Assembly (NCBI RefSeq): GCF_000981445.1
Contig: NW_012237371.1
Span: forward strand, 1 to 44,720
Reading direction: 5' to 3'
Source of the DNA: Babesia bigemina
Taxonomy: Eukaryota
DNA length: 44,720 nt
Both the position numbers and the translations under genes were made by a program. Positions 4,501 through 43,918 of the stretch are shown piece by piece. The notes beneath the pieces were generated by a model, which saw only the letters and a list, made by a program, of their open reading frames with translations, was not told the DNA's origin and made no database searches. Position 1 is the first letter of the stretch. The number at the start of each line of letters is the position of its first letter.

Positions 4501-6739
4501 ATGTCCTACACTGTTTCACAACATCTGGGAGGGTGTCTGTAAACAATAACCCTACAGCGTTTCCTAGTTTGACAACTTGATTCTTTTGCAGCAATTTAAT
4601 CTCTTCAATCATTTTTGCTAGACCTTCTGTTGAATCGTTTCTCGAAATTTGCTTTTCTTTAAACGATGTCAAAACGCTCTGCAGCCCACTTTCAATGCTG
4701 CTACCTGCCGCTTTTTCAATATTATTGCAAAGACTGCTTAGATTTTGCGTTACGTATTGGTACTGTTTGAAAGCATCACTCTTAAGGCCATCTATTGTTG
4801 CTAAAGCAGTCTTCACCTCTCTCTCAATATCACCGATCGCCGCGGGGAGGGATCCTTCTCGTTTATCCTTCTCGCCGGTCAGCGTCGCCTTATCACTCGT
4901 AATCTTATCCTGTTGTATGAAACTATTATAATTGCGAAACGTTTTTTCAGTGTTCATATCCACTTTACCCGGCGCATTACCATTATTAGTTTGTCCGATC
5001 TCCTTTTCCAGTATGCCGTCAATAGTTTTTGCAATATTGTCTCCAAGTTTAGGTGTCTGGCTAGAGCCGGAGGTGTATGGGTTGAAGGGATCGGTGGCGG
5101 CATTTGCATTTTCTCGCGCAGGTTTAAGCGCGTCGGTGAAACCATTAAGTAACTCGTCAGTTACTTCAAGCGCCTCGTCGACGTTGCCAATCAAACAATC
5201 ATCCACCAGTTCCTGGATTTGCGAACCAAACTTTTTGGCTATTGACGCGATCGCTGGCAAAATTGATTTCAAGGCGTTTTGAAGATGTGTAGCGTTGCCA
5301 GTGAGAGCAACACCGTGTCGTGCTTGCAATGCTCGATGCATCTGTTCAGCGAATTCTACAATTTGGTCTTGCCTAACTTTTGATTCAACTGTAGCAGCAA
5401 ATGTGGTAAGAAACGACTGGATGTTTGCCAATGCTGTGGACACTTCAGTCGCGTCGACTCTGAGAACACCGTTTGCATCCCGAACAAATTCGTTATATAT
5501 GTGACTACTGATGCCTACCTTCACCTGCTCTGTGTTCGCGCTAACATACCTTCCAAACCAATACTTCGCCATCTCGTCTGTGTCCAATATGCTTCCAACC
5601 CACTCCCCAATGTTTTTTCCGAACGTATCCTCGTTACCGTACTGAGTGACATACTCCATAACTTTTGCATTAATGCCCCCCAGTCCTTTTTCTTCTCCAT
5701 CCCCCTTGATTGCCTTAACTTTCTTTTGAACTTCTTCAACGTACTTACTAAAATACCCGCCAATAAGCATCTGGAGCTCAACTTTCAACCCATTTAAATT
5801 ATCTCTAAGAGCTAGATTCGTTTTAGCAACCTCCGAAAGCGCCGCGGTAACTTTTCTCTCAACACTATCCGCAGCCGCGCTACCTGCCCTCTGAAGAGCA
5901 TCCGCCTTCTGTTTCGATTGCAATGCGGCTGCTATAATTGCATTCTTCAACTTAGCACCTTTGTTGTCGTCTACCTCTTTCAATATTTTCCCTACTTGCT
6001 GTAAGGTGCCATCAATAATTTCATCGGCCTTGCTTACCCACTGCGTCAACTCCAATACGTATTGCATAAGCAATTCATTGATATGCAACACTTGATCATG
6101 AATCATTCTTATATTCGCTTTCAACGACTTCTCTAGCTTTTCAGTCTGCGTTTCCACGACATTGTGAATATTATCTTTCAACATATTAAGCTTATTACTA
6201 AGGTGCTTTACTAGTCCACGTAAATGAAATTCATCCCTTGTCGACGATTTTCTAATGGTCAAGACTTCGGTTTTAATTTTCTCAAAATCTAACCAGATTT
6301 TTGTTTGCAGAGGGCCATCAAGTGTTCTGACGGCTTCGGCAATTATTTTTAGATTTTCTTCCAAACCGTCAGCTACCGTGGACGCCATCTTGTCAATCAC
6401 AATATCCAGGGAATGAGTGTTCAACTGTTGAACTGCCACAATATTGTCACCAATTCTATCTTTCAATGCTTTTAAAGTGCCTTCACCGCCATCTTTTACA
6501 ATTTTATCAATTTTCTTTTGAAGCTCTCCATCCCACTCCCCCAGCGCATCGCTCACAGCCTCAACGGCCGCAGACAATCCGCCAGGATTGTGCATACTGT
6601 TTTTAATTTTTTTGAGTGTTTCAGTCATTTTATCTACAGGATAATACGTTTTAACTGCATCATCATCTTTCACCGCACCAAGCACACCACTCAAAAATCC
6701 CATCACCCCGTCACACAGCCTGTCCAAGTCAGAGTACAC
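1511..6739 (-). CDS. Gene 1: VESA1-like variant erythrocyte surface antigen family protein (family often auto-annotated 'extracellular matrix-binding ebh' in Babesia), tail type A; 5' leader interrupted by a stop
   Basis: 1742-aa open frame with GIVYSDLDRLCDGVMGFL box, Cys-rich C-half, TM (PFIWLNVALWLLSLLYLLHIMVI) and tail RLDLLHIKSHLHSPSSHRIAAQSLL...YLQP. The family leader ATG at 6982 is in frame but has TAA at 6857-6859; next in-frame ATG is 6703. Confidence 0.8.
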   Translation of the reverse strand: MYSDLDRLCDGVMGFLSGVLGAVKDDDAVKTYYPVDKMTETLKKIKNSMHNPGGLSAAVEAVSDALGEWDGELQKKIDKIVKDGGEGTLKALKDRIGDNIVAVQQLNTHSLDIVIDKMASTVADGLEENLKIIAEAVRTLDGPLQTKIWLDFEKIKTEVLTIRKSSTRDEFHLRGLVKHLSNKLNMLKDNIHNVVETQTEKLEKSLKANIRMIHDQVLHINELLMQYVLELTQWVSKADEIIDGTLQQVGKILKEVDDNKGAKLKNAIIAAALQSKQKADALQRAGSAAADSVERKVTAALSEVAKTNLALRDNLNGLKVELQMLIGGYFSKYVEEVQKKVKAIKGDGEEKGLGGINAKVMEYVTQYGNEDTFGKNIGEWVGSILDTDEMAKYWFGRYVSANTEQVKVGISSHIYNEFVRDANGVLRVDATEVSTALANIQSFLTTFAATVESKVRQDQIVEFAEQMHRALQARHGVALTGNATHLQNALKSILPAIASIAKKFGSQIQELVDDCLIGNVDEALEVTDELLNGFTDALKPARENANAATDPFNPYTSGSSQTPKLGDNIAKTIDGILEKEIGQTNNGNAPGKVDMNTEKTFRNYNSFIQQDKITSDKATLTGEKDKREGSLPAAIGDIEREVKTALATIDGLKSDAFKQYQYVTQNLSSLCNNIEKAAGSSIESGLQSVLTSFKEKQISRNDSTEGLAKMIEEIKLLQKNQVVKLGNAVGLLFTDTLPDVVKQCRTFLWIHLDEQITHSINSIKKDALNRYVMLKRRELNELQTFVEKMRMSMQNIVDLDSVTSVKGLLKVVRGSTFDVQNNIPQFYGSEDPTLLTNVKEAVFPTTLQPLPERTIKERLVALSTALNNYVKPILDYIHNQVNQLTKPPTNPPPTDQPTDQPTDPAKQLTKIKTDFDELLEHLKNNSDKTRIYNYDHPFTEKLASLKNATNDLSPSLFANPRHPELLDAVRAGLEGLVKEMERVYVNGYDGGDTIKRWTHRETGDVELTADGRNGAKIFLSILEILFHDLSKLLQGCVPRGDSHGRNIRLNDISNDGNQTKNPLGKWLHERGYTVSDDERTQNGELDRRKNGKQIMELYLKTIIGSNNAHLTTCKPNGKTKDFRTLDILSCLVGHLKTFYEVCHLRHISKPKAPRNINEMLYWVCGLCHHPGLYSLRLHVMELFPKPKGKEKMTHKEIGSANLTLDVQTEADITARALDAKLLPICGNSHDILVAILGYGNAEGRYACEFRINPDGLSYPADPAQCLDMLLDILRRLFLQFRYLSKRCSVAAEHHGWSECQYGKEIPTTKSHCNNGLTDQPRSQPNTQPNCQPTCQATCQVNCQPNCQSTSPLMSLLNDCLPGHLPHILESVGCKAQCRTCSPSNSGKPCLTPFGFRAFTGSTKTGKFLCSVLKTFLNNDYVKYLCCLQPKPPKTLPEHFGFALSLVKGWSNISKLSQNMKSKYSFQSSFESRVRDVSLKLYPDSYELTKTLMKAYGSQAVLHEDCKHPHLVNFTSSEICRYDAADVACAPYLQSLCADSYEYMAINNCSLYLSWAIYLSWDFWRLLNDLYNDFCNIFCADWGCRSCLRGDTCKKGSHGLTDEKSGNPHCQCSSIVDCKGVSPTLYRYGFSFGEADKLSNNQYKKKCSDFCGQLNKLLNSKYFTDLFDKCDEFLFKIRAPFIWLNVALWLLSLLYLLHIMVIRLDLLHIKSHLHSPSSHRIAAQSLLAAARVNKLGKVFYLQP

Positions 6740-6949
6740 AATACCGCTGCCATCGTAGCCTTTGGTCTCAGAGTTGAAGCCGAGGAAAGTTTCGAGCCCA
6801 GAGCAGAGGTTATTAAGGATGTTAGTAGGGTTGTTATTTGAGGTAATTTTAAGGTTTTAAATTTTGTCAAATTTCTTGTCAAGCTCACTAGGCGGCACAT
6901 GGTCAGGGCAGTGGCAAGAGGGGGACGAGGGGAAGTGAAGGGTGACAAG

Positions 6950-7008
6950 GCACAAGTTATTGCTATGGCTAATGGAGGTCATAGCGGTATTATGGCGAGG
7001 TGATTCGA
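6950..7008 (-). promoter_or_regulatory. Conserved 5' leader block TCGAATCACCTCGCCATAATACCGCT-ATGACCTC...AATAACTTG; also at ~13375-13430, 20375-20431, 27474-27529, 34446-34501, 43813-43869
   Basis: Recognisable in all six cassettes at the 22-bp array/gene boundary; function inferred from position only. Confidence 0.55.
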
Positions 7009-7660
7009 GCGATGTAGAGTGGATAAAGGGGCGATGTAGAGTGGGTTAGGGAGCGATGTGTAGTGGGTAAAGGAGCGATGTGTAGTGGGTAAAGGAGCGA
7101 TGTAGAGTGGATTAAGGAGCGATGTAGAGTGGGTAAGGTAGCGATGTAGAGTGGGTTAAGGGGCGATGTAGAGTGCGTTAAGGAGCGATGTGGAGTGGAT
7201 AAAGGGGCGATGTAGAGTGGGTAAGGGGCGATGTAGAGTGGGTTAGGGAGCGATGTAGAGTGGATAAAGGGGCGATGTAGAGTGGATAAAGGGGCGATGT
7301 AGGGTGGTCAAAGGGGCGATGTAGAGTAAATAAAGGGGCGATGTAGGATGAGTAAAGGATCGATGTAGAGTGGGTTAGGGAGCGATGTAGAGTGGGTTAA
7401 GGGGCGATGTAGAGTGGGTTAAGGGGCGATGTAGAGTGGATAAAGGGGCGATGTAGAGTGGGTTAAGGGGCGATGTAGAGTGGGTAAAGGGGCGATGTAG
7501 AGTGGATAAAGGGGCGATGTAGAGTGGATAAAGGGGCGATGTAGAGTGGATAAAGGGGCGATGTAGAGTGGGTTAGGGAGCGATGTAGAGTGGGTTAGGG
7601 AGCGATGTAGAGTGGGTTAAGGAGCGATGTAGAGTGGGTAAAGGGGCGATGTAGAGTGGA
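7008..7660 (+). repeat. 22-bp minisatellite array upstream of gene 1 (~30 units)
   Basis: Same consensus, occasional 21-bp units. Confidence 0.97.
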
Positions 7661-7674
7661 TGATAATCACCACT
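7655..7674. other. Palindromic junction AGTGG(A/G)T(G/A)ATAATCACCACT between 22-bp and 20-bp arrays; also 253-272, 13966-13985, 21074-21093, 28566-28585, 35672-35691
   Basis: Present at all six such junctions. Arms AGTGG/CCACT in all copies; TGAT/ATCA in three. Confidence 0.8.
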
Positions 7675-7685
7675 CTGGTCAGCAC

Positions 7686-7768
7686 TGTCATCGCTGCCAT
7701 GTCCGTGTCATCGCTGCCGTAACCATGCCATCGCTGCCGTGACCATGCCATCGCTGCCGTGACCATCA
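7686..7768 (+). repeat. 20-bp minisatellite, short array (~4 units)
   Basis: catcgctgcc core repeated. Confidence 0.9.
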
Positions 7769-7770
7769 CG

Positions 7771-8036
7771 TTGGTCAGCACATTGGTCACCACGTTGGTC
7801 ACCACCTTGGTCAGCACATTGGTCACCACGTTGGTCACCACGTTGATCATGGCATTGGTCAGCACCTTGGTCATGGCATTGGGCAGCACCTTGGTCATGG
7901 CATTGGGCAGCACTTTGGTCACCACTTTGGTCAGCACTTTGGTCAGCAGTTAGGTCACCACTTTGGTCATGGCATTGGTCAGGTGCTTGGTCAACACTTT
8001 GGTCACCACTTAGGTCAGCATCTTGGTCAACACATC
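7771..8036 (+). repeat. 12-bp minisatellite downstream of gene 2
   Basis: Same consensus. Confidence 0.95.
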
Positions 8037-8160: not shown

Positions 8161-11100
8161 TTATGGTTGCAGATAAAACACTCTGTTAAGCTTGTTAACA
8201 CGTCCAGCTGCGAGTAGTGATTGAGCAGCTATGCGATGTGATGAGGGACTATGCAAATGCGATTTGATGTGGAGCAGGTCTAGGCGGATGACCATGATGT
8301 GGATGAGGTAGAGGAAAGAGAGGAGCCAGAGGGCGACGGTGGTCCAGAAGAATTTACTGCGAATGTTCCACAAGAAAGTTGGAATGGTCTCGAATTTCAA
8401 CTTAGCAAGTACGTCATTCACTTTCTTATCGTCGCTGAGTACTCTGTTCAACGCTCTGCAGAAATCTTTGCACGTCCGCTTCTTATCATCGCCATACTCG
8501 CCGTATAGGGATTGAGGACTGTCAAATACGAAGCCATATCTGCAGAAAGTAGGAAGCGTTGACTTGCATGTTACAATGGTACTGCATTTGGAATGGTGGT
8601 ATGGGTTTTGCGATGAAGTTTTAGATTCCGACGTTGACTTGGTTGGACACCCAACCGCGCAGCTGGTGCGATTGCACTTGGAATGGTCCTGACCGCATTT
8701 GTTATTGCAATCATCATATAACATTTTTAGTAGATCATAAAATGTTTCCGTTAGATAAACTATCCACGATAAGTAGTTGCCGGCGTGTTTCTCGGAGAAG
8801 ACAGTCCATATATGTTGACCACAAGGCTGCAGGTACCGGCCGCAGTATGTGTCTTTAGCCATGCTTTGATCGCAGGCTACAAGACTAAACAGATCACCTT
8901 TAACATGGGTGTCACCATGTTTTGATTTATGGCTGATGCTTTTAAACATTGAGCTAACCTCCAACGGGTTATCGCTATTTTCGAAGTTGGCATCTTTGAC
9001 GGCTAGGCTATACGCAATCTCTCTCTGCTTTTCACGAACTCCATTGCCCGAATGCCACCCATTCAAGAAGTTATAATAAAACGCAAACATATCTCCCAGC
9101 GTCTGCGGCGGCCTGGTCAATAGACATGTCAACAGGCCACAGAGACGGCTGAGCGGAGCGTGCTCACTGCCACAGAATTCGCGGAGCACGTCCATGATAT
9201 GCCTACCCTGCTGCCTGCGCGAGGCCATGCCGCTGATGTCGTTGAAGCCCATGGGCGTGATGCATACCTTGCCGAAGTGACCGGGCGCAGTGCAGGTTGG
9301 CTTGCAGTTGGACTTGCTGTACGGGTGAGGGAGGAAGCCTGGTAGGCCGTCCTCAAGGAACGATTGAAGTGGCGATTTGACACCGCACTCAGCTGTTTGG
9401 TCACACCTTTGGTTGCACTTTTGGTTGTGCTCTTGGTCAGCCTTTTGCTCAGCACTTTGCCCAGGACACTGCAGGGTATTGCAGTTCCAAGCGGAGCCTC
9501 CGACTCCCTGACCATACCAGCAATCGTACCAGCCGCCCAGCTTGGTGGTGTACGAGCACTGTTTGAAGAGGAAAAACAGCTGATTATATACCCTGCTGAT
9601 CACCTCGAACAGTAAATCGAGACATTTGGATGGGTCACTTGGGTACGTTAATTTTGCCGAGTTGGTGTTGAACTCACACGCGTAGATGCCACCCGAGTGT
9701 CCGTGGCCCAGGAACGAGATGAGCGTTTCCTCCGCGTGGTGGCAGACATCGCGAAGGGAAGTCGATAGCAAATTAACATTTATAGGTGTAGGATACGCAT
9801 CCAAAGATCGTTCCTTCTCTACATCCACAGGTATACCGCCGTCAATACTTTTGGCGTCTGTTTCCTTCGGCTCTTCAAACAAAGCTTCAAAACCGTTGAG
9901 CGCGAGATCGGAGTAGACAGCATTAAACGGAAGGCCGCTTAGCCACTGGAGCATATCGGAGATGGTAGACGGATGCTTCGATGCGGTGAAAGTGGCGTAG
10001 TGGTTGACACCGTAATACTCATGAAGATGATCGTTGAGACACCCAATGAAGTCCATGATATTAAAGTTATGTTTCTTCTTTGGAGACCTGCATTGCGGGA
10101 CGTGTTCATGCTCCGAGATGTTTATGATTTTGGCGAGGATTGTATGGATGTGCTCTCCCTTCATCTTGGACGAATTCTGCAGCTCGCCATCTTGCAACGG
10201 AACATCGCTCGCAACACTGTAGCCACATGACTTCAGGAAAGGCCCGAGATTGTTTTTAGGATGCGAATTTATTTTAAGTTTATACCACCCCTCTCCCTGC
10301 TGACATTTTTCCTTCACCTTGCTAAGGTCGTTAAGCAACATCGGCAGGCAGGTCATAAAAACTTTAGCGCAGCGCGTAGCGTCGGCGGTTGGTTCTGTTT
10401 TTTGCTGCTTTGTCTCCTCCCAACTGATTCCCTTACTACCACAATACCTATTAACATACGCCTTTTCCATCTCCGCTACCAGCCCGTGCATCCCTGCCTT
10501 CAGCGCATCCAGGAGTTGCGGGTGGTGCGGGTTCGCGAAGAGAGCGGGGTTGAACGTGGACAGGGCGGAGGTCAGGCCGTGGAGGCGGGAGCGGAAACCG
10601 GAGTCAAAGGTGAAGGTGCGATTGTTCTCGTGGAGGTGGGTGAGGAGGGCGTAAGTGCGGGCTTGGAGGTCGGTGACCAGTTGGGAGGAGGGGGTGGTTT
10701 GGGAGGTGATGTAATAGAAAATTGATTGCACATATTCTCGGAGGTTTAGTGACAAGTTGGCGCAATTTACTGAGGCATCTTGGCTTATAGCGCTCATTAC
10801 GTCAACAAGCATATTACGCTGCGGGCCTTGACCGGTATGCCCGCCGCCGTATAGCTTAGTCATTAGGCCTTTGAGGCCGCTGTTCTTGTTGTCGTGAATT
10901 ATAGCGTCAATTTTCGATAGCTGAATGGTGACTAGGGTTTTAAAATTTCTAAGAGTAGGCTCCTTGGACAGCACGAATTGTTTCAGGGACTCTTTTCTGA
11001 TTTCCCGCAGTGCACGATTTGAAGATGTAACGTACGTGTTATGGAATGTGTCAACGGCTGCTTCGACGCGTCGAAATGTATCGACAACTGTTTGGGTAAG

Positions 11101-13404
11101 AGATTGCTGCAGTTTTGAGACGGCTTTCTGTGAGATGTCGTATACCTCGTAGAATGTATTTTGCGATGCTGCAATTTCCGTCGTCAAAGTTTCATTGCCG
11201 TTAGCCACTGTTAAAGTGATTTCATCTATAGTGTCTCTTAAGGTTGTCATGATATTGTCCGTCTGCGTTTTAATTATTGCAATGGTGCCGTTGTCTTTCG
11301 AAAAGTTGGTAAGGTTATCAAGCTCTCCGTCAATTTCAACGATTTTTTGGTCCATTGTCTGTCTCTCTGCTAATATTGGATCTAGCGCGATGACGCTTCG
11401 TTTTACAGTATCCAATGCATCATCAATTTTCTTCGCGGCACTTTCACTGCCATTAAATTTCGTGATGAATTCTTCGACAAGTTTTGTAGCACCGTCTATC
11501 TCTGTTGCTATGCTTGACTTTTTTGACTGACCAATCTTTGTGTCATCGACCATCCATACAAGTTCGGTGGCAGCTGTCTTCGCCTTAGCGGCAAGGCCTC
11601 CAAATATGTGCTTGACGGTATAGTGAAGAGCGCTTTTGTCATGGTCTGTACCACGACCTGTTTGCGTTAGGTTACCTTCCCTCGAAATAGATGAAATAAT
11701 CTCCGGCACTATGGTAGCCGTTTTTAAATCTTTGTTTTGAGTACTACCTGTCAGTTGTTCGGTCAAAGATAGCAGACATTTCCTAATTTTAGTCAAACAC
11801 GTCGAAACATTGTCGCCTTTCGATGCGTCGACTGCTGGCACTGTTTTAACAACTGCGTTAAGTTTAGGGTTAATAACTTTGCTAATATGTTCCGCAACCT
11901 TGGATTTTAATTCCTCTTGGTCCTGCTGCTTAAAATAATTTTTCTTGTTAGTATGAACGTAAGCGTCAATATACTGAGTCACAGCCTCGCTTTTCAAAAC
12001 AGAATTAAACCAGTCCTCCACAATTTTTTTCAACCCACTATCACCATCATCTAGTTTTTTAAATTGGGCGACATACGCCTCTGCTTTCTTCGCAATCTCT
12101 TTTAGGTTTCCATCACTGCCGTTGAGACCACTGACAAGCCCATTCAGTTCTCGAAAAAGACAGTTCCAATCGCTAACTATCCCTTTTCTCGTAGATCCGT
12201 CAATTACCTTATTTTTCAACTCTCTGAAGCTCCCCTGAGCCCGTTTGAGAAGAAGACTTAGTTCCTTTTTATTCCGCTGCAGCGCATCACAAAATTTGTT
12301 TGCTTCTTCTCTTAGAAATTCCAACTTCCGTAGGATATGATTTTTATAATTTTCATCGAACCTACTCAACAGTCCCGTATCACTTATTAAAAGATCATTA
12401 ATATCTTTGAAACACCTTGTCTTATTGTCCATAACGGTTTGCATTTTTTTGCCAATTCTGCTGAACTCATCTTCCAACTTTTTCTGTAGATTGGTAAATC
12501 CTGTGCTGATCGTTACGAGCACAGCATGTTTTTCCATCTCCAACTTACCTTTTAAACCATATGATTTATCACTCAATCCTTCGTTAACCATTTCATCTAG
12601 ATCGAAGAATTCCCTGTCTACCTTGCTTACTGCCTCCGCAAGCCCCTTGAGGTCCTCAATTGTCGAGTCCCTAAGATTCTTAGCAGCCTGCGAAACCAGT
12701 TCCACAGATGGCATTAATTGTTTCTCCACGTAATCATCAAGTCTACGAACATTCAATGCCGTTATGCTACAATACGTCGGGAGCTCTTTTACATCATCAA
12801 GCCAATCCTTAAGGACGCCTTGAGAATAAGCACTGTATTCCGAATTTTTCATAGGTTCAATTTTTGTTATTAAGCTTCCGATTTCAGTCGATATTTTATT
12901 CATTGATGTTTTTATTTCAGAATTCTTTCTTTCCACCTCCCTCTCATACCCCTCCAACCACGCCTTCACCTCCGCGACAGCCTCCAAAAGCCCAGTACGC
13001 CCGGAGCCAATTTTATCTTCTAATTTTGTAATAACTGTATTAATGTTATTATCTGTATTTTTATCATAAGTTGTCACTTCATTTTCGTTTTTCACCCCCT
13101 CAAGCACACCACTCAAAAATCCCATCACCCCGTCACACAGCCTATCCAGGTCAGAGTACACAATGCCACTGCCGTCGTAGCCCTTGGAAGCAGAGTTGAA
13201 GCCGAGGAATGTCTGAAGGCCGGAGCAGAGGTTGTTAAAGATGTTAGTAGGGTTGTTATTTGAGGTTATTTCGCACATTTTAATTTCACCAAATTTCTTG
13301 TCAAACTCCCTAGGCGGCACATGGTCAGGGCAGTGGCAAGCGGTGGAAGCAGGGAAGTGAAGGGCGACAAGGCACAAGTTATTGCTATGGTTAATAGAGG
13401 TCAT
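8161..13404 (-). CDS. Gene 2: VESA1-like variant surface antigen, tail type A
   Basis: 1747-aa ORF intact from leader ATG (MTSINHSNNLC); same conserved box, Cys-rich domain, TM and tail. Confidence 0.85.
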   Translation of the reverse strand: MTSINHSNNLCLVALHFPASTACHCPDHVPPREFDKKFGEIKMCEITSNNNPTNIFNNLCSGLQTFLGFNSASKGYDGSGIVYSDLDRLCDGVMGFLSGVLEGVKNENEVTTYDKNTDNNINTVITKLEDKIGSGRTGLLEAVAEVKAWLEGYEREVERKNSEIKTSMNKISTEIGSLITKIEPMKNSEYSAYSQGVLKDWLDDVKELPTYCSITALNVRRLDDYVEKQLMPSVELVSQAAKNLRDSTIEDLKGLAEAVSKVDREFFDLDEMVNEGLSDKSYGLKGKLEMEKHAVLVTISTGFTNLQKKLEDEFSRIGKKMQTVMDNKTRCFKDINDLLISDTGLLSRFDENYKNHILRKLEFLREEANKFCDALQRNKKELSLLLKRAQGSFRELKNKVIDGSTRKGIVSDWNCLFRELNGLVSGLNGSDGNLKEIAKKAEAYVAQFKKLDDGDSGLKKIVEDWFNSVLKSEAVTQYIDAYVHTNKKNYFKQQDQEELKSKVAEHISKVINPKLNAVVKTVPAVDASKGDNVSTCLTKIRKCLLSLTEQLTGSTQNKDLKTATIVPEIISSISREGNLTQTGRGTDHDKSALHYTVKHIFGGLAAKAKTAATELVWMVDDTKIGQSKKSSIATEIDGATKLVEEFITKFNGSESAAKKIDDALDTVKRSVIALDPILAERQTMDQKIVEIDGELDNLTNFSKDNGTIAIIKTQTDNIMTTLRDTIDEITLTVANGNETLTTEIAASQNTFYEVYDISQKAVSKLQQSLTQTVVDTFRRVEAAVDTFHNTYVTSSNRALREIRKESLKQFVLSKEPTLRNFKTLVTIQLSKIDAIIHDNKNSGLKGLMTKLYGGGHTGQGPQRNMLVDVMSAISQDASVNCANLSLNLREYVQSIFYYITSQTTPSSQLVTDLQARTYALLTHLHENNRTFTFDSGFRSRLHGLTSALSTFNPALFANPHHPQLLDALKAGMHGLVAEMEKAYVNRYCGSKGISWEETKQQKTEPTADATRCAKVFMTCLPMLLNDLSKVKEKCQQGEGWYKLKINSHPKNNLGPFLKSCGYSVASDVPLQDGELQNSSKMKGEHIHTILAKIINISEHEHVPQCRSPKKKHNFNIMDFIGCLNDHLHEYYGVNHYATFTASKHPSTISDMLQWLSGLPFNAVYSDLALNGFEALFEEPKETDAKSIDGGIPVDVEKERSLDAYPTPINVNLLSTSLRDVCHHAEETLISFLGHGHSGGIYACEFNTNSAKLTYPSDPSKCLDLLFEVISRVYNQLFFLFKQCSYTTKLGGWYDCWYGQGVGGSAWNCNTLQCPGQSAEQKADQEHNQKCNQRCDQTAECGVKSPLQSFLEDGLPGFLPHPYSKSNCKPTCTAPGHFGKVCITPMGFNDISGMASRRQQGRHIMDVLREFCGSEHAPLSRLCGLLTCLLTRPPQTLGDMFAFYYNFLNGWHSGNGVREKQREIAYSLAVKDANFENSDNPLEVSSMFKSISHKSKHGDTHVKGDLFSLVACDQSMAKDTYCGRYLQPCGQHIWTVFSEKHAGNYLSWIVYLTETFYDLLKMLYDDCNNKCGQDHSKCNRTSCAVGCPTKSTSESKTSSQNPYHHSKCSTIVTCKSTLPTFCRYGFVFDSPQSLYGEYGDDKKRTCKDFCRALNRVLSDDKKVNDVLAKLKFETIPTFLWNIRSKFFWTTVALWLLSFLYLIHIMVIRLDLLHIKSHLHSPSSHRIAAQSLLAAGRVNKLNRVFYLQP

Positions 13405-13431
13405 AGCGGTATTATGGCGAGGTAATTCGAG

Positions 13432-13972
13432 AAATGTAGAGTGGGTAAAGGAGCGATGTAGAGTGGATAGAGGAGCGATGTAGAGTGGATAAGGGAGCGA
13501 TGTAGAGTGGATAAGGGAGCGATGTGGAGTGGGTTAGGGAGCGATGTAGGGTGGATTAGGGAGCGATGTGGAGTGGATAAGGAGCGATGTAGAGTGGATA
13601 AAGGGGCGATGTAGAGTGGGTTAGGGAGCGATGTAGAGTGGTTTAAGGGGCGATGTGGAGTGGGTTAAGGGGCGATGTAGAGTGGATAGAGGGGCGATGT
13701 AGAGTGGATGAAGGAGCGATGTAGAGTGGGTAAAGGGGCGATGTAGAGTGGGTTAGGGAGCGATGTAGAGTGGATAAAGGAGCGATGTAGAGTGGGTTAG
13801 GGAGCGATGTAGAGTGGGTTAAGGAGCGATGTAGAGTGGACAAAGGGGCGATGTAGAGTGGGTTAAGGAGCGATGTAGAGTGGGTAAAGGGGCGATGTAG
13901 AGTGGGTTAAGGGGCGATGTAGGAAGGTAAAGGGGCGATGTAGAGTGGGTAAAGAGGTGATGTGGAGTGGAT
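13432..13972 (+). repeat. 22-bp minisatellite array upstream of gene 2 (~25 units)
   Basis: Same consensus. Confidence 0.97.
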
Positions 13973-13992
13973 GATAATCACCACTTAGGTCA

Positions 13993-14375
13993 CCATGTCA
14001 TCGCCGCCGTGTACATGTCATCGCCGCCGTGTACATGTCATCGCTGCCGTGTCTGCTGTCATCGCTGCCGTGTCTGCTGTAATCGCTGCCGTGACCAGTC
14101 ATCGCTGCCGTGACCATGTCATCGCTGCCGTGTCCATGTCATCGCTGCCGTGTCCATGTCGTCGCTGCCGTGTCCATGTCATCGCTGCCGTGTCCATGTC
14201 GTCGCTGCCGTGACCAAGACATCGCTGCCGTGACCATGTCATCGCTGCCGTGTCCATGTCATCGCTGCCGTGACCATGTCATCGCTGCCGTGACCATGTC
14301 ATCGCTGCCGTGACCATGTCATCGCTGCCGTGTTGATGTCATCGCTGCCGTGTCCATGTCATCGCTGCCGTGAAC
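13993..14375 (+). repeat. 20-bp minisatellite array
   Basis: Same consensus. Confidence 0.95.
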
Positions 14376-14380
14376 ATTAC

Positions 14381-14756
14381 TTGGTCAGGTGGTAGTTCAG
14401 CACTTTGGTCACTACTTTGGTCATGACATTGGTCACCACTTTGGTCAGCACATAGGTCACCACTTTGGTCAGCACCTTGGTCATGGCATTGGTCAACGCG
14501 TTGGTCAGCACCTTTGTCAGCGCCTTGGTCAGCACATAGGTCAGCACCTTGGTCAACACTTTGGTCAGCACCTTGGTCACCACGTTGGTCACCACGTTGG
14601 TCAGCACTTTGGTCAGCACATTGGTCAACACGTTGGTCAACACTTTGGTCAGCACATTGGTCACCACGTTGGTCAGCACTTTGGTCAACACTTTGGTCAC
14701 CACTTTGGTCACCACGTTGGTCAACACATTGGTCACCACATTGGTCAGCACATTAG
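14381..14756 (+). repeat. 12-bp minisatellite downstream of gene 3
   Basis: Same consensus. Confidence 0.95.
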
Positions 14757-14878: not shown

Positions 14879-17800
14879 TTACGGTTGCAGGTAAAACACC
14901 CTGCCCAGTTTGTTAACACGTGCAGCAGCAAGTAGTGATTGAGCAGAAATACGATGCGATGAGGGACTATGTAGATGCGATTTGATGTGGAGCAGGTCTA
15001 GGCGGATGACCATGATGTGGAGGAGGTACAGGAGAGAGAGGAGCCAGAGGGCTAGGACAAGGTAGGAGAATGGTTTACGTATTTCCCATAAGAAATTTGG
15101 AATTGTTCTGTATATCAAGGTTGCAAGCGGTGCTTCAGCTGATTCTTTCTTGTTGAGCACTCTCTCTAATGTTTTGCATAAGTCTCCACAAGTACGCTTT
15201 GTTTCAATATACTCCGCACCGCTCAGGTTCGTCAAGCTATTTAATACGAACCCGTACTTATACAATGTTGGTCGACTGAAAGGGCATCTAGCTATAGTTT
15301 TGCAGAGTTGGTCATGTTGTTTTTGGGTAGACAGTGCAACTGGTTTTGCAGTTTTTGCGGATTCCGTTGCTGATTCTTGTGCTTCATAATAGGACTTGAC
15401 ATGACAATTCTTCACACATCTAGTGTCGTGGCACCTGGTTCCCTTCTTGTTGCACTTCTCACAACATTCCTTGTATAGGTTCTCAAGATAACTGTAAAAC
15501 GTTTCCGTTAAATATATAATCCAAGATAGATATTTGTCTGCATTTTGGCTTGAGAAGACATGCCACGTCTTCAAGCCAATCGGTGCCATATAGCGACCGC
15601 ACGTGATTTGTACCTCCCCTTCATAATCACAACTGTAGAGACAATATAAATCACCTTTAGTATGGGTAGATTCCTGATTCCGCATATGATGGCTGTTCTC
15701 GAACAATGGAGCGATCTCCAACGTTTTACTGTAATCCCCGAAATTAGCTTTCCTAACAGCGTCAATAAATGCGTTACTTTTGTGCAATGGAGCATTCTTT
15801 CCCCAGCCATTAACGAAGCAGAAATAGAACGCAAACATGTCACCGAGATTTTGCGGAGGCTGCTGCAAAAGACATGCTAAGTCGCCACAAAGCTTGTTAA
15901 GTGGACTGTCGGACTCTCCACAAAACCCTTCAAGAGCACGCATGAGGTGTTCACCTTTACGTGTATGCGAGGCGGTAACGCTTATGTCTTTAAAGCCCAT
16001 CGGTGTTTTGCACGGTAATCCGCGGTGATTGGACACGGTGCATTCTAGCTTGCATCCCGGTTTGGTGAAGGAGTGAGGGAGGAAACCTTGCAAACCATCT
16101 TCTAGGAATGATTGCAACGGTGACTTAAGGCCACAGTTGGGGTGCTGGTCACACGTTTGCTTAGCGATTTGGTCACGCTTTTGGTCGGCCTTTTGGTCAG
16201 CTATTTGGGGACAGTTTTGGTTGGCACATTGCTTCTCGTTGCAGGTCCATGATGACCCGGCTATTCCCCTACCGTACCAACAATCACGCCAACTGTTAGC
16301 TTCGTAGGTACGCTGACACTGGATGAATAGGAAAAACAATTGGTCATACAATCTCTTCAGTATATCTACTAACATATCGAAGCACGCACCTGGAGCTGCA
16401 GGATACGAGAAACCGTCTGGGTTCGTATTGAAGTCGACGGCATAGATGCCTTCCGCGTGGCCATAACCAAGAATTCCTATTAGCACGTCTTCGGCGTCGA
16501 CGCAGACATTTTGAAGAGCACCTCGTATGTTTGCAGCTGTAACTGGAGCTGGATACGCAGGCAGCTGTTCGTCGTCGTCTACCACAGAGATACCGACAGT
16601 GTCGTCGTTCTTTTCTTCCTCCGGCTTCTCAAACAGTTGACCAATATCGCCAACTGATACTTTTGCGAACACGGTATTATGAGGAAGGCCAGTCAACCAG
16701 CGAAGCATATCGTACACGGACGATGGCGATTTCGGTCTCTCGATATGGCGCAAGTGGGAAACGCTGTAGTAGTTTTCAAGGCAGTCATACAGGAAATGGA
16801 GGATGTCGAGGAGACTCATTTTGGTTACATCACTAGTAGCAATGTACCATTCTTTGTTTTTCTCAGTTAACCATTGCTGCAGATGCGCAATCTGGAAAAT
16901 GCTGAACTTTTTGTCATTGATCTTCCTATATATGTCTGTTCCCGTACACTCCTGCTTATTACTCAACTCACTCTCATGGGAGTCACGCAACTTGGGAACC
17001 TTGTAGCCATGACTGCTAAAGAAATCGGCAATAATACTGTTATATTTATTGTACGCTGAGTGAATTGGTTTAAATTGTGCCTGTTTACATGTCTCACTCA
17101 ATGACATCAGATCATTAAGCAAAATACCGAGTATCGTCAAAAACACCTTGGCGCCATTTTTTCCTTCAGGCGTCAAAACTTCTTTTTCACCTTTCGAAAC
17201 CCACTGTTTAATACTTTCACCTCCATCATACCTACTCACATACCCCTTCTCCAACTCCTCCACGAATCCCAGCATCCCATCCCGCAGCGCCTTGAGCACG
17301 GGCCGTCCTGCGTCCGGCAGCGCTTGGGGGTCGAGGGAGGAGGAAAGGTGATTACATAACTTACTAAATTTGTCATCGAATACGCAATTTCGTTTCTTAT
17401 CATGAAGACAAAGATGCTGCAGCAAGTCATCAAATTTGTCTTTAATATTTTTCACATGTACGGATTGCTGGGTGTCCTCCTTAGGCATGTGCGGCGTTTT
17501 TGCTTGATACTCAACATACATTGCAATAGCGTCAACATAATCTTTGAACCTCCAGGACAAGTTAGGAAGTTTTTCTGAGGTTACCAGGTCCGTGTGATTT
17601 TTTAGCTTCAACAACATATCTCCATCGTCCTTGAGCATCAGCTTCAGCAGACCTTTAACACCGGTGTTCAAATCGTCATTTATGATTTTATTAATGACGG
17701 AAATAGGTTCATTAACTAGTGCGCCTAGTGCATTCAAATGAGCTCTGTGATTATCAGCGAAAAGTATTTGCATCTCATCGCTGACTTTGTTGAATGCTTG

Positions 17801-28705: not shown

Positions 28706-28711
28706 ATTAAC

Positions 28712-32200: not shown

Positions 32201-34475
32201 GATCGTGTGCTGTGCCAACAGCGGTCTCGACCCCAATAATTGCGTCAGTTAATGCCTTCTCGGCGTCCTTGACGTTCGTTTCTACGTTCCGAATCCTATC
32301 AAACAGCTGACCTTTCAACACTTCCATATGATATTCAGCTGCCTTTTGATTTATCTCCACATTACCCGTCTCATCGGCTCGTTGGATTTTCTCCAGCGTT
32401 TCCACCACGGAGGCGATTGAGGCAAGTTTACCATTCATAGAGCCGTTGCCTCCTTGTACTATCAATTTATCAAGATTCGCTATCTTCTCTCTAACGCTTT
32501 TCAATGCTGCGTCAATAGTATTTCCAGTGTGTTGGGGTTTATAGAAATTATTGCCGAACTCTTCGAGTTTTTTCATAGCCGTTTCCACGTATTCTATGTG
32601 AGAGATAACTGTGAATCTCTCGATTTCGGGGCCAGTTTGCCGGGCGACATCGACGAGTTGTCGGAGGATCGAGTGAACGACGCTTTTAAGAGTATAATGG
32701 CTGTATGAGGACGCATTCGCTGCCTTAACTTTGCGTCCTATAGCATGCAGTATATCTTCCAAAAACATTTCAAACCCCGTGTCCTTAAGCTTATATCCTA
32801 GTTCAGTCGCAAATTGGTTGCAGCCACTGTTTAGCGCTTTAACATACATTCTTATCTTTGGTAATGAATGGCGCGAAGCTTCCGCATCTTCCATATGCCG
32901 TTTTACAAGTGCACTAGCCTGGCCAATGATAGTCTGAAGTTCGGTCTTTATCGCTTCTATGATCGTAGGATGTAAATCCTCTACTTGCTTGATGTCAGTA
33001 TTGAAATTATTCGCAAACTGCGTTTTACCTTTTTTAGCATATGATTGGCCATTCTGGTCTTCATTTTTGTTGAACTTGTAATACGTTTTCAGTAAGCTAC
33101 AAATCTCCTCTTCCTTAAGAATTTTCCTTACCCACTCCTCCACTTTTGTTTTGAACCCGTCCCCGTTAAACATAAGAGCATATTGCTTAATGCCGTCGAC
33201 GACTTGCGATAGACCCGCATTTGGGGGTTCAGTCGATGTGCCATTAACACCATTAACAAGCCTACTAATTTTCAATTGAAGATCAAACCAATGTTTTTCT
33301 ATACTATCCACGGTACCCCCTTCAGCAATATTACTGATAGTATTCTGTTTCAACGTCGCGAAATGCTCCTCCGCCTGGTCCACTAAAGAATGGAGTTCCG
33401 CATTATTGCGCTGTAGCGAACCGTGAGCACTTTCTACTTTCTTTCTTATATCAGAGAATAATGTCAAAATATTCTTCTTAAAATTGGTTTCATACTCACC
33501 AAATTCGCTTGTAATAGTGCCCTTTGTTATACCAATGATATTAAGGATATCGTTGATGTGTTTCCTTTTTTCGTCACTCAATCTACCAATGGATTCCAAG
33601 ATTTTTGTGAACTCCTTATGTAATATGTCGTTCAGCGTATTGCATCTCTGAATTATCGTGTTCACAATATGCGCTTGGTGAACTGTCATCTCATTGTCCA
33701 CGTGTTGCGCCTGCTGCATCAGAGCACTATTCATAGAGGTCTCATAAAATGCCTTCACGGTCTCTTCCACCACTTTTACCGGCGTTTCTAACTTTTTACA
33801 GAGCGCTGAGTCCAATGTTTTTCTCGCCTCATCGGCTTGCTGAGCATTTTGTAGGTACAGCCTAGTAAGGTTACGCCACTTATCATGTTGGTGCTGTAGG
33901 GATTCATTTTTTAAGGTTTCGAATTTCTTATCATATTTGTTCATGTCAATTTTCATGGTTTCCATTGGTTCTTTGAATTTTTCAATTTGTTCATTTACTT
34001 TCTCTTCATACCCCCCCAACCACCCCTTCACCGCGCCGACAGACGCCACAAGTCCAGTACGCCCGGAGCCAATATTATTATTTAACAAGTCTAGTACATC
34101 TTTGAGTTTTTTATTGTCTCCAGTGATGTAATTATCATAAGTTGTCACTTCATTTTCGTTTTTAACTGCTTCAAGCACACCACTCAAAAATCCCATCACC
34201 CCGTCACACAGCCTATCCAGGTCAGAGTAGACAATACCAGTGCCGTCGTAGCCTTTGGAGTCAGAGTTGAAGCCGAGAAATTTTTCGAGGCCAGTACAGA
34301 GGTTAGTAAGGATGTTAGTAGGATTGTTTTTTAAGGTATTTTTAAGGTTCAAAATTTTACCAAATTCCTTGCCAAGCTCCCTAGGCGGCACATGGTCAGC
34401 GCAGTGGCAAGAGGTGGAAGAGGGGAAGAGAAGGGTGACAGGGCACAAGTTATAGTCATGGTTTATAGAGGTCAT
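29256..34475 (-). CDS. Gene 5: VESA1-like variant surface antigen, tail type A
   Basis: 1739-aa ORF intact from leader ATG (MTSINHDYNLC); same motifs as the other copies. Confidence 0.85.
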   Translation of the reverse strand: MTSINHDYNLCPVTLLFPSSTSCHCADHVPPRELGKEFGKILNLKNTLKNNPTNILTNLCTGLEKFLGFNSDSKGYDGTGIVYSDLDRLCDGVMGFLSGVLEAVKNENEVTTYDNYITGDNKKLKDVLDLLNNNIGSGRTGLVASVGAVKGWLGGYEEKVNEQIEKFKEPMETMKIDMNKYDKKFETLKNESLQHQHDKWRNLTRLYLQNAQQADEARKTLDSALCKKLETPVKVVEETVKAFYETSMNSALMQQAQHVDNEMTVHQAHIVNTIIQRCNTLNDILHKEFTKILESIGRLSDEKRKHINDILNIIGITKGTITSEFGEYETNFKKNILTLFSDIRKKVESAHGSLQRNNAELHSLVDQAEEHFATLKQNTISNIAEGGTVDSIEKHWFDLQLKISRLVNGVNGTSTEPPNAGLSQVVDGIKQYALMFNGDGFKTKVEEWVRKILKEEEICSLLKTYYKFNKNEDQNGQSYAKKGKTQFANNFNTDIKQVEDLHPTIIEAIKTELQTIIGQASALVKRHMEDAEASRHSLPKIRMYVKALNSGCNQFATELGYKLKDTGFEMFLEDILHAIGRKVKAANASSYSHYTLKSVVHSILRQLVDVARQTGPEIERFTVISHIEYVETAMKKLEEFGNNFYKPQHTGNTIDAALKSVREKIANLDKLIVQGGNGSMNGKLASIASVVETLEKIQRADETGNVEINQKAAEYHMEVLKGQLFDRIRNVETNVKDAEKALTDAIIGVETAVGTAHDHIQNAVKDLKVELLRVTENAFTSMVREVKSLFAESHRAHLAALRSLVDRQLKAVQDIIAKDRVTGVKGMLKTLSGVSVYVKSKMPASSSDTNNMLIQLKNKIEEHSVIISQASPYVKTYLRTYLMYIIRDIKELLEKQTSPKVDYSPKVTGILDQLEKLFDHLEKPKLYAYDHTFVDLRNDLNGILNALHPSSFADSPSPLLAPLKAGLAEFAAQLGLAYVNRYSGKQFEGQLWTTKRVTDSEKPDSPPKTVTVLTPEGRNCAKVCLTIVEILVGGLTDLSKKCELQWSTKEIHRISGLGTFLSDCGYVVSNRDKQDGELQRSDKMTGNQIRLRLKEKKYTSNTEVSHLLECETNKDSNGNKIKSLEFDFFDVLKCLHCHLETYYTLGHMASFTAKRNPCSVYEMLIWCAGLHYNSVYEIFVRDGFTGLMEKPKKKIIQASDDGLELDAEYDDLTSYYVDVFPSKIRYGHITAAVDHICATSHDVLTRIIGHGDEYTTYGVDFCNNSLKFRYPTSAEECLDMFLDILRRLFPPLKYLEAQCSTAAREYGWAGCHYGKDVQTTNWPCSEHSSSKVTCQPNDQAKCEPNCQPKSPLMSYLNDCLPGHLPHVLSDIGCKAKCTTCPRSMPGMPCLTPLGFRGFSGTKREGRDICNVLGKFFDNGNLKVLFSLQAKTPSTLPEHFGFALSFVKGWNDDKSTRSHSIKQSIEASITDRSINLYEPPSTLTDKLRDAYGSTHTKYGDKNHLHAYADLSSLAIAKPCTVDGVNCAPYLSSLCIDSYHHLAKKQSNTYLSWAIYLPWTFWDLLNNLYNAFCSINCQDWGCRGCLRGDKCKKGEHGVVDDDKPSAICQCPSIVDCKGVAPTLYQFGFVFGEASTLNDKQSPKKCSDFCSQLKNVLTSEYFVKLFEECDNFLWKIREPFSYLVVALWLLSVLYLIHIMVIRLDLLHIKSHLHSPSSHRIAAQSLLAAARVNKLNRVFYLQP

Positions 34476-34499
34476 AGCGATATTATGGCGAAGTAATTC

Positions 34500-35680
34500 G
34501 AGCGATGTAGAGTGGATAAAGGGGCGATGTAGAGTGGGTTAAGGAGCGATGTAGAGTGGGTTAAAGGGCGATGTAGAGTGGGTTAGGGAGCGATGTAGAG
34601 TGGGTTAAGGGGCGATGTAGAGTGGGTTAAGGGGCGATGTAGAGTGGATAAAGGGGCGATGTAGAGTGGGTAAGGGGCGATGTAGAGTGGATTAGGGAGC
34701 GATGTAGAGTGGGTAAAGGGGCGATGTAGAGTGGGTTAAGGGGCGATGTAGAGTGGATAAAGGAGCGATGTAGAGTGGATAAAGGAGCGATGTAGAGTGG
34801 GTTAAGGAGCGATGTAGAGTGGATAAAGGGGCGATGTAGAGTGGATAAAGGGGCGATGTAGAGTGGATAAAGGGGCGATGTAGAGTGGATAAAGGGGCGA
34901 TGTAGAGTGGGTTAGGGAGCGATGTAGAGTGGATAAAGGGGCGATGTGGAGTGGGTTAGGGAGCGATGTGGAGTGGGTTAGGAGCGATGTAGAGTGGGTT
35001 AGGGAGCGATGTAGAGTGGGTTAAGGGGCGATGTAGAGTGGGTTAAGGAGCGATGTAGAGTGGGTAAAGGGGCGATGTAGAGTGGATAAGGGGCGATGTA
35101 GAGTGGGTAAAGGGGCGATGTGGAGTGGATAAAGGGGCGATGTAGAGTGGGTAAAGGGGCGATGTAGAGTGGGTTAAGGGGCGATGTAGAGTGTGTTAAG
35201 GGGCGATGAGGAGTGGGTAAAGGGGCGATGTAGAGTGGGTTAAGGGGCGATGTAGGGTGGGTAAAGGGGCGATGTGGAGTGGATAAAGGGGCGATGTAGA
35301 GTGGGTAAAGGGGCGATGTAGAGTGGGTAAGGGGCGATGTGGAGTGGGTTAGGGAGCGATGTAGAGTGGATAAGGGGCGATGTAGAGTGGGTTAGGGGGC
35401 GATGTAGAGTGGGCTAGGGAGCGATGTAGAGTGGGTTAAGGGGCGATGTAGAGTGGGTTAAGGGGCGATGTAGAGTGGATTAGGGAGCGATGGAGAGTGG
35501 ATGAAGGGGCGATGTAGAGTGGATAAAGGGGCGATGTAGAGTGGATAAAGGAGCGATGTAGAGTGGATAAAGGGGCGATGTAGAGTGGGTAAAGGGGCGA
35601 TGTAGAGTGGGTAAGGGAGCGATGTGGAGTGGGTTAGGGAGCGATGTGGAGTGGGTTAAGGGGCGATGTAGAGTGGGTAA
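34500..35680 (+). repeat. 22-bp minisatellite array upstream of gene 5 (~54 units)
   Basis: Same consensus. Confidence 0.97.
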
Positions 35681-35696
35681 TAATCACCACTTGTGT

Positions 35697-35892
35697 CACT
35701 GTCCTCGCTGCCGTAACCATGTCATCGCTGCCGTAACCATGTCATCGCTGCCGTGACCATGTCATCGCTACCGTGTCCATGTCATCGCTGCCGTGACCAT
35801 GTCATCGCTACCGTGTCCATCAACTGCCATCGCTGCCGTAACCAGTAACTGGGTCAGGTGGTTGGTCACCACTGTCATCGCTGCCGTAACCA
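35697..35892 (+). repeat. 20-bp minisatellite array
   Basis: Same consensus, interrupted by 12-bp-type units near 35850-35873. Confidence 0.9.
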
Positions 35893-35896
35893 TCAA

Positions 35897-36110
35897 CTTG
35901 GTCACCACGTTGGTCATCGCATTGGTCATGGCATTGGTCACCACTTTGGTCAGCACATAGGTCATCACCTTGGTCAACACGTTGGTCAGCACTTTGGTCA
36001 GCACTCTGGTCAGCACTCTGGTCAGCACGTTGGTCACCACCTTGGTCAGCACGTTGGTCACCACCTTGGTCACCACCTTGGTCACCACCTTGGTCACCAC
36101 CTTGGTCATC
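35897..36110 (+). repeat. 12-bp minisatellite downstream of the small TM-gene locus
   Basis: Same consensus; homogeneous TTGGTCACCACC run at its right end. Confidence 0.95.
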
Positions 36111-43768: not shown

Positions 43769-43918
43769 GGCTTTCTTAGTAGCATCGTCAGTGAGAGAAT
43801 GGTCAGTATCAGCAAGTTATTATAATGCTTAATGGAGGTCATAGCGTTAATATAACGAAGTAATTCGAGAGATTTGGAGTTAGGATGAACATGACAAGAC
43901 ATGGCAGTGGACAAGGTG

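What the first reader, a model, noticed from the sequence alone, without database searches (positions are those of the whole stretch)
6692..43842. Lesions confined to the 5' ends; one leader fused at three different depths
Seen: gene 1 has an in-frame TAA at leader codon 42 (6857-6859, where gene 5 has TTG). In genes 3 and 6 the leader ATG (20405, 43842) is out of frame and stops after 20 and 25 codons. Yet >5 kb downstream is stop-free in all six. The same ATGACCTC...AATAACTTG leader joins antigen sequence at ESIDWLIQV (gene 3, ~190 codons before the CDGVM Met), at ADTDHSLTDDATKKALNDI (gene 6, ~145 codons) and near SCHCPDHVPP (genes 1, 2, 4, 5; ~70 codons). Inference: nested 5' truncations as in Borrelia vls or Anaplasma msp2 donor pseudogenes. 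The alternative is initiation at the shared CDGV-Met with the leader acting as a uORF.
Basis: partly seen in the sequence, partly recalled or inferred. Interest (0 to 1): 0.75.

Follow-up and report, generated by a model that had tools for sequence, protein, structure and literature searches.

The report
Decapitated Babesia surface-antigen gene array
Six back-to-back surface-antigen genes of the cattle parasite Babesia bigemina have lost their normal start but kept long open bodies behind a shared block of repeats, and they likely serve as a spare-parts archive that is copied into active genes to change the parasite's coat.

Summary
The window is a head-to-tail array of six Babesia bigemina ves1b-type antigen genes. 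None has the family's N-terminus (M..KKLTDCPENLRESIDW). Each sits behind the same cassette: three satellites, a linker and the 'leader'. The gene 1 stop and the out-of-frame leaders of genes 3 and 6 are real in the sequence, and 10,058 downstream codons have no stop. The junctions of genes 3 and 6 recur in 2 and 5 other public B. bigemina proteins, so they are inherited fusions, not read errors. The first 52 codons look close to neutral (pN/pS 0.70). The 40 codons just before the CDGVM Met are constrained (0.27) and hold 19 of 20 invariant family residues, which argues against that Met as a designed start. Bodies are mosaics that share patches with intact genes. Best reading: a donor archive for gene conversion, analogous to trypanosome VSG arrays with their 70-bp repeats (0.6). 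Main rival: low-level expression in place, since published proteomics assigns peptides to 17 such array genes. Truncated ves1 donors were proposed for B. bovis in 2007; I found no description of this cassette architecture.

The parts
1511..6982 (-). Gene 1: ves1b-type, 93-codon leader type, stop at leader codon 42 (6857-6859); CDGVM Met at 6703
8161..13404 (-). Gene 2: ves1b-type, leader in frame, open for 1,747 codons; CDGVM Met at 13125
14879..20405 (-). Gene 3: about 55 nt of leader fused out of frame just before ESIDWLIQV (20344); lacks about 14 N-terminal codons of the family; CDGVM Met at 19795
22071..27503 (-). Gene 4: leader in frame, open for 1,810 codons; second tail type (RIPSS); CDGVM Met at 27224
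29256..34475 (-). Gene 5: leader in frame, open for 1,739 codons; CDGVM Met at 34196; 5' end nearly identical to P0112, 3' half to P0039
38372..43842 (-). Gene 6: 30 nt of leader fused out of frame before ADTDHSLTDDAT; second tail type; CDGVM Met at 43375; codons ~1100-1600 nearly identical to P0104
6704..6823 (-). Conserved box of 40 codons before the CDGVM Met (gene 1; likewise 13126-13245, 19796-19915, 27225-27344, 34197-34316, 43376-43495); kept in 6 of 6 genes; pN/pS 0.27
6983..8033 (-). Cassette before gene 1: 12-mer array 7767-8033, 20-mer array 7689-7766, 22-mer array 7009-7659, 27-nt linker
13405..14751 (-). Cassette before gene 2: 12-mer 14397-14751, 20-mer 13993-14372, 22-mer 13434-13970
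20406..21911 (-). Cassette before gene 3: 24-mer 21630-21911, 20-mer 21095-21616, 22-mer 20432-21082
27504..29117 (-). Cassette before gene 4: 12-mer 28722-29117, 20-mer 28604-28705, 22-mer 27532-28570
34476..36108 (-). Cassette before gene 5: 12-mer 35897-36108, 20-mer 35700-35820, 22-mer 34502-35678 (a 24-mer array follows gene 6 at 37683-38220)
43843..44720 (-). Cassette before gene 6: 22-mer 43920-44720 (cut by the window end) and a longer linker
3..1384 (-). Seventh cassette after gene 1 (12/36-mer 595-1384, 20-mer 279-590, 22-mer 3-261): the array likely runs on past the window end

Best explanation
These are six B. bigemina ves1b-type genes that lack the family's N-terminus and sit behind a shared satellite-plus-leader cassette, and they likely act as silent donors whose sequence is copied by gene conversion into intact, expressed ves1b genes. 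Shown: the decapitation at three depths, the common cassette, the open bodies, an almost unconstrained 5' part, a constrained box before the CDGVM Met, and patches shared among array copies and with intact genes. Inferred: recombination joined the cassette to antigen genes at several depths without regard to frame; the cassette replaced the promoter and start; the conserved box and the conserved 3' tail give the homology for strand invasion; bodies stay open because donated patches are tested in the expressed gene or because bodies are refreshed from intact genes. Speculative: the G-rich 22-mer array marks or initiates recombination, as 70-bp repeats do for VSG genes.
For: Full-length relatives start M..KKLTDCPENLRE(S/A)IDW (43 of 120 hits); 0 of 6 window genes do. 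The same off-frame junctions recur in 2 (gene 3 type) and 5 (gene 6 type) of the 227 proteins held, and two of them were bridged in annotation by gaps of 11 and 17 nt. Codons 1-52 of genes 1, 2, 4, 5: pN/pS 0.70 (bootstrap 0.41-1.39), variable columns 14/12/14 by codon position; codons 53-104: 0.32 (0.18-0.51); permutation p = 0.014. In 19 leader-type proteins, 61% and 58% of variants in codons 2-31 and 32-52 are BLOSUM-negative against 29% in the box. One stop among four copies is what neutral change predicts (11-37% per copy for 5-20 substitutions). 19 of 20 invariant columns lie before the Met, which falls inside a predicted helix. Mosaics: gene 6 shares 451 residues in identical tracts with P0104, gene 5 shares 281 with P0039; full-length P0001 shares 160 with leader-type P0056, P0031 85 with P0116, P0040 69 with gene 5. 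Leader-type and intact genes are mixed in two trees (at least 5 and 3 label changes forced by well-supported branches). 26 G4-like motifs lie in 5.1 kb of 22-mer arrays against 13.8 in shuffles (p = 0.005) and 6 in the other 39.6 kb. Segmental conversion from silent ves genes is established in B. bovis (PMC6630957).
Against: Published B. bigemina proteomics assigns peptides to 17 chromosome-end array genes, including two with the gene 6 type junction, at up to about 40% of the top VESA1b signal. This fits mosaics in an expressed gene, but it also fits expression in place. Genes 2, 4 and 5 are open from the leader ATG and would give complete membrane proteins. Leader codons 1-20 have pN/pS 0.36 and no indel occurs in 156 nt among four copies or among 19 aligned proteins (these are ascertained as in frame). 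Patch sharing has no direction, and most 100-residue windows of P0001 and P0031 match their best array copy at only 27-70%. Both trees still show leader-type genes clustered more than chance (5 of 500 and 3 of 500 shuffles). No transcript, promoter or chromatin data were available, and no conversion event was observed. I could not see DNA upstream of any intact ves1b gene, so the absence of the cassette there is untested.
Confidence: 0.6

Rival explanations
1. The array genes are expressed in place: in-frame copies (genes 2, 4, 5) start at the leader ATG, and others start by leaky scanning or re-initiation at the CDGVM Met, giving a shortened VESA1 class. Genes 1, 3 and 6 would be weakly translated or dead members.
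For: Peptides assigned to 17 array genes; stop-free bodies with intact transmembrane segment and tail; 3 of 6 genes in frame; leader codons 1-20 pN/pS 0.36 and no indels; 43 of 136 B. bigemina and 20 of 87 B. ovata proteins are annotated from this Met; G at -3 and +4 of the CDGVM ATG.
Against: The Met is an internal residue in 43 of 43 full-length proteins; starting there drops 19 of 20 invariant residues; the codons upstream of it are constrained at protein level; 2-13 ATGs lie between the leader start and this Met; 16 of the 17 array genes rest on 1-3 quantified peptides from another strain searched against the reference; annotation starts are predictions.
Confidence: 0.25
2. The array is a by-product: intact ves1b genes are repeatedly captured and decapitated by recombination at the cassette, spread by unequal crossover, and are young enough not to have decayed. 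They are never used.
For: Mixed trees fit repeated origin from intact genes; near-identical blocks in other contigs show recent duplication.
Against: Leaders differ from their majority by 6-16 of 156 nt. Bodies neutral for as long would carry roughly 5-13 stops each (my arithmetic) but carry none; this assumes cassette and body have the same age, which recombination may break. No near-identical intact parent was found for any window gene among 22 full-length B. bigemina proteins.
Confidence: 0.1
3. The lesions are sequencing errors, or splicing removes them.
For: No reads could be examined. Public annotation joins leader and antigen through predicted introns in several relatives (P0009, P0017, P0087, P0110). 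Gene 1's stop is a single site.
Against: The same offsets recur at independent loci. Of 50 frame-restoring GT/GC-AG pairs enumerated for genes 1, 3 and 6, only one has a donor close to the GTGAGT seen in three in-window introns, and its use would delete much of the invariant box. A full-length expressed ves1b is single-exon (span equals coding length). Splicing would not bring back the missing N-terminus. An error remains possible for gene 1's stop alone.
Confidence: 0.05

Closest known systems
BbigVes1b (B. bigemina variant erythrocyte surface antigen 1b; Jackson et al. 2014, PMC4066756)
   Same: Same body, invariant box, one C-terminal transmembrane segment and tail; close relatives with the same junctions are labelled ves1b in the table of PMC5660447; recombination and transposition are reported for the family.
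   Different: The paper describes head-to-head pairs and interstitial insertions. In the sections I read it does not describe 5'-decapitated head-to-tail arrays or the satellite cassette, and it says only that flanking repeat motifs 'may exist'. Relatives on unplaced contigs carry no ves label in the later table.
Truncated B. bovis ves1 genes proposed as 'functional pseudogenes' (Brayton et al. 2007, PMC2034396)
   Same: Truncated ves1 copies outside head-to-head pairs, suggested as material for segmental gene conversion.
   Different: Those are described as variably truncated genes without a common cassette. Here the loss is strictly 5', bodies are nearly whole, and the cassette is stereotyped.
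Trypanosoma brucei silent VSG arrays with upstream 70-bp repeats (PMC3610638)
   Same: Promoter-less archive genes, a satellite upstream of most copies, repeats defining the 5' limit of recombination.
   Different: No sequence relation. A matching repeat at the Babesia expression site is untested, and here the coding start itself is lost at varying depths.
Anaplasma msp2/p44 functional pseudogenes (PMC11946796) and Borrelia vls silent cassettes (PMC2632889)
   Same: Silent partial copies that keep conserved sequence on both sides of a variable region; conversion into an expression site; mosaics.
   Different: Bacterial; donors are short central segments; one defined expression site. Here donors are 5 kb, keep their 3' ends, and many intact genes exist.

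Membership tests
BbigVes1b | Homology to B. bigemina ves1b proteins, including the conserved C-terminal domain with one transmembrane helix | tested here: met
   labelled relatives
BbigVes1b | Family N-terminus (M..KKLTDCPENLRE(S/A)IDW) of full-length, proteomically detected members | tested here: not met
   absent in 6 of 6 genes; gene 3 keeps only ESIDW onward. They are truncated ves1b derivatives, not canonical members.
BbigVes1b | Head-to-head arrangement with a partner ves1 gene (35% of cases in the paper) | tested here: not met
   all six on one strand, head to tail; not required for membership
BbigVes1ba | ves1b body with a ves1a-type 3' end | tested here: inconclusive
   Genes 4 and 6 have a second tail type, but the 120 best hits to it held no protein with a ves1a label or that I could recognise as ves1a, and its carriers P0109 and P0106 are labelled ves1b.
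BbigVes2 | Short, lacks the C-terminal domain, predicted signal peptide | tested here: not met
   1,739-1,841 codons with C-terminal transmembrane segment
Gene-conversion donor archive (VSG, msp2, vls type) | Copies lack an intact 5' end or promoter | tested here: inconclusive
   Coding 5' end lost; promoter absence not testable
Gene-conversion donor archive (VSG, msp2, vls type) | Conserved sequence on both sides of the variable region | tested here: met
   5' box and 3' tail at 75-95% DNA identity between genes while most of the middle gives no blastn match
Gene-conversion donor archive (VSG, msp2, vls type) | Transcriptionally silent in place | not testable with these tools
   no sequencing run was listed; published peptides are ambiguous
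Gene-conversion donor archive (VSG, msp2, vls type) | One-way transfer into an expressed locus | tested here: inconclusive
   shared patches and mixed trees without direction
Gene-conversion donor archive (VSG, msp2, vls type) | The upstream repeat is also present at the expression site | not testable with these tools
   no DNA of intact loci was available

The most novel reading that the evidence does not exclude
B. bigemina has evolved a trypanosome-like two-tier system: a large chromosome-end archive of decapitated ves1b genes, each behind a G-quadruplex-prone satellite that acts like the VSG 70-bp repeats, feeding a few expression-competent loci (candidates: the two full-length proteins that share an identical 26-residue MRHVPKK start but have different, array-like mosaic bodies).
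Probability: 0.3. Interest if true: 0.78.

Novelty: new variant of a known kind. Interest (0 to 1): 0.55.

Why it matters
How ves1 variation works outside B. bovis is largely inferred, and the 2014 comparative paper left open whether flanking repeats guide recombination. This array supplies a candidate: a stereotyped repeat cassette in front of every truncated copy, with fixed 5' and 3' homology blocks that can be followed by long reads. It also suggests that much of the B. bigemina ves1b repertoire is mis-modelled: at most 23 of the 136 B. bigemina proteins I held have the full N-terminus, and many start at an internal Met or through tiny false introns. That bears on repertoire counts and on reading expression data.

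Tried and rejected
No whole genome is held for the window. No sequencing run was listed (no evidence either way), so no reads were laid. A scan of metagenome contigs for the leader found 0 matches. Pfam gave no family at its curated cut-off for 8 proteins. Foldseek found no PDB match at E <= 0.001. Earlier findings: none. Origin of the leader: I tested whether it is decayed antigen coding sequence (1 of 9 frame tests at p = 0.01, not repeated in sister genes), the decayed native start or 5' UTR (apart from gene 3's own SIDWL match, 1 of 30 alignments at p = 0.02; 0 of 16 codon-level tests) or satellite-derived (SCHCPDHV resembles the inverted 20-mer, p = 0.017, 1 of 6 tests). None is established. 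I first read the proteomics table as naming only full-length ves1b; a second search showed array genes listed as 'hypothetical protein', so that reading was dropped. The single-cell paper's supplement gave only a gene list. The careful tree search did not finish; both trees are quick searches. The label ves1ba for genes 4 and 6 was considered and not adopted.
Full report
Identity. The window holds six minus-strand frames of 1,760-1,860 codons in head-to-tail order. A search with the first 320 residues of gene 3 gave 154 hits; the 118 named ones among the 120 listed are all Babesia bigemina or B. ovata proteins. The leader motif occurs in B. bigemina proteins and in 0 of 87 B. ovata proteins (species labels were copied by me), so the species is B. 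bigemina. Chromosome-placed relatives with the same junctions are labelled ves1b in the supplementary table of PMC5660447. All six genes end in one predicted transmembrane segment about 60 residues from the end. Pfam gave nothing at cut-off.

Observation. The coordinates and the three lesions are as stated. Full-length members begin M..KKLTDCPENLRE(S/A)IDWLIQV (43 of 120 hits). Gene 3 matches these from ESIDW onward (70% to P0001), so it lacks only about 14 codons; gene 6 joins in a later module; genes 1, 2, 4 and 5 keep little more than the box before the CDGVM Met. SCHCPDHV is in 0 of 43 full-length N-termini and is part of the cassette. Relatives show at least two more depths (P0088, P0056) and doubled leaders (P0057, P0093).

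The cassette. Each gene is preceded by a 12-mer or 24-mer array, a 20-mer array, an 11-nt linker, a 22-mer array of 25-54 copies, and a linker of about 27 nt to the leader; a seventh cassette lies at 3-1384. The 24-mer follows only genes 4 and 6, which share a second tail type and 3' flank (32 of 35 nt with each other, 15-18 with the rest). The 22-mer arrays are G-rich on the template strand and hold 26 G4-like motifs against a shuffle mean of 13.8 (maximum 21 in 200) and 6 in the remaining 39.6 kb. G4 motifs are reported to be enriched near B. bovis ves loci (PMC9047050, passages). The origin of the leader stayed unresolved.

Errors or splicing. The off-frame text of the gene 6 junction is read in five public proteins (P0057, P0075, P0094, P0106, P0120) and the gene 3 junction in two (P0004, P0007), among 227 held. 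For two of them the published gene span exceeds the coding length by 11 and 17 nt, which looks like annotation bridging a frame offset; a full-length expressed member has no gap (coordinates). Of 50 frame-restoring intron candidates in genes 1, 3 and 6, one has a near-canonical donor, and it would remove much of the invariant box. Gene 1's stop could not be checked in reads.

Where selection acts. In genes 1, 2, 4 and 5, codons 1-52 give pN/pS 0.70 (0.41-1.39) with variable sites spread evenly over codon positions, and codons 53-104 give 0.32 (0.18-0.51), p = 0.014. Across all six genes the 40 codons before the Met give 0.27 and the last 45 codons 0.29. Against my reading, codons 1-20 alone give 0.36 and there are no indels; the sample is four sequences, and constraint in the box may be inherited from intact ancestors. 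Nineteen leader-type proteins show radical changes in the first 52 residues and 28 of 41 invariant columns in the box. One stop in four copies matches a neutral rate. In a 40-sequence alignment (40 of the 81 first tried), 19 of 20 invariant columns precede the Met. An AlphaFold2 model of gene 3 from ESIDW onward (384 residues, pLDDT 79.7, pTM 0.47) is helical and puts the Met inside helix 173-195, but confidence over the box is only about 60 and contacts were not examined; no solved fold matched.

Traffic. The six bodies are old paralogues: blastn finds matches mainly at the 5' box and the 3' end. Yet blocks are nearly identical to other loci: gene 5 with P0112 at the start and P0039 in the 3' half, gene 6 with P0104 over about 500 residues. 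Full-length P0001 and P0031 share an identical 26-residue start and then best match different truncated copies window by window, up to 95% and 84%, though most windows are far lower. Quick trees of the box region (61 rows) and the tail (54 rows; 7 rows without a complete tail left out) mix leader-type and intact genes; gene 5's tail sits beside that of the top VESA1b of the published proteome; some clustering by class remains. Direction is not shown.

Expression. In the proteomics supplement of PMC4066756, the 18 rows labelled BbigVes1b include 10 proteins I hold, all with the full N-terminus. But 17 further rows are chromosome-end genes at roughly 7-kb spacing on one strand, labelled hypothetical; the 8 of them I hold all lack the full N-terminus, and two carry the gene 6 junction. 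Sixteen rest on 1-3 quantified peptides and one on 7. The data come from a non-clonal strain searched against another strain's proteins, and no unplaced-contig gene appears in the table. This is what mosaics of donors in expressed genes would give, and also what weak expression in place would give.

Mechanism. I favour a donor archive (0.6): the cassette replaced the start, conserved blocks at both ends allow conversion into intact genes, and use keeps the bodies open. Expression in place stays at 0.25, unused by-product at 0.1, error or splicing at 0.05.

What is known. Segmental conversion from silent ves genes is established in B. bovis (PMC6630957, passages), and truncated copies were proposed as functional pseudogenes (PMC2034396, passages). 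PMC4066756 (sections 8, 12, 13, 21-24, 26, passages, supplement legends and searched table rows; figures not visible) reports ves1b, recombination and tandem subtelomeric copies in B. divergens, and leaves flanking repeats as an open possibility. PMC5660447 (passages, table parts 5 and 7 and searched rows) notes B. bigemina-specific ves1b clusters; 3 of the 20 relatives I looked up fall in cluster 4. PMC10463595 and PMC9531838 (passages; one supplement part) add nothing on this architecture. Analogies were read as passages in PMC3610638, PMC11946796 and PMC2632889. Nine searches listed no paper that describes the cassette or the nested decapitation; subscription journals, theses and the figures of the 2014 paper were not seen and could hold it.

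Verdict. Real, correctly seen, and part of a genome-wide class. A new variant of a known kind; interest 0.55.

Noticed in passing
window 36456-37300 (minus strand): A small multi-exon gene between genes 6 and 5: three introns of 35-36 nt with GTGAGT donors (37095-37130, 37020-37054, 36944-36978) separating repeated Gly/Ser mini-exons, then a cysteine-rich exon and a C-terminal hydrophobic segment. Family not determined.
   Followed up: partly
window ~36220-36400 (minus strand): A short open frame with a hydrophobic stretch right after that gene, flanked by a duplicated ~45-nt sequence; may be a further exon or a tiny membrane protein.
   Followed up: no
window 21630-21911 and 37683-38220: The 24-mer satellite replaces the 12-mer only after genes 4 and 6, which share the second tail type and 3' flank, so tail, flank and first satellite travel as a unit.
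   Followed up: partly
window 22071-27503 (gene 4), relatives P0128 and P0129: The last 251 residues of gene 4 are 100% identical in proteins from other contigs, one with a different 5' part: recent block duplication or assembly of variant alleles.
   Followed up: no
B. ovata proteins P0020, P0065, P0089: Their annotated N-termini also lack KKLTDCPENL and join low-complexity text to SIDWL, and 20 of 87 B. ovata relatives are annotated from the internal Met: a similar truncated class without this leader may exist there.
   Followed up: partly
22-mer arrays, e.g. window 34502-35678: The 22-mer aligns with the reverse complement of the 20-mer and contains CCCTAA-like words (44 on the minus strand against 6 on the plus strand): the satellites may be related and telomere-like.
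   Followed up: partly
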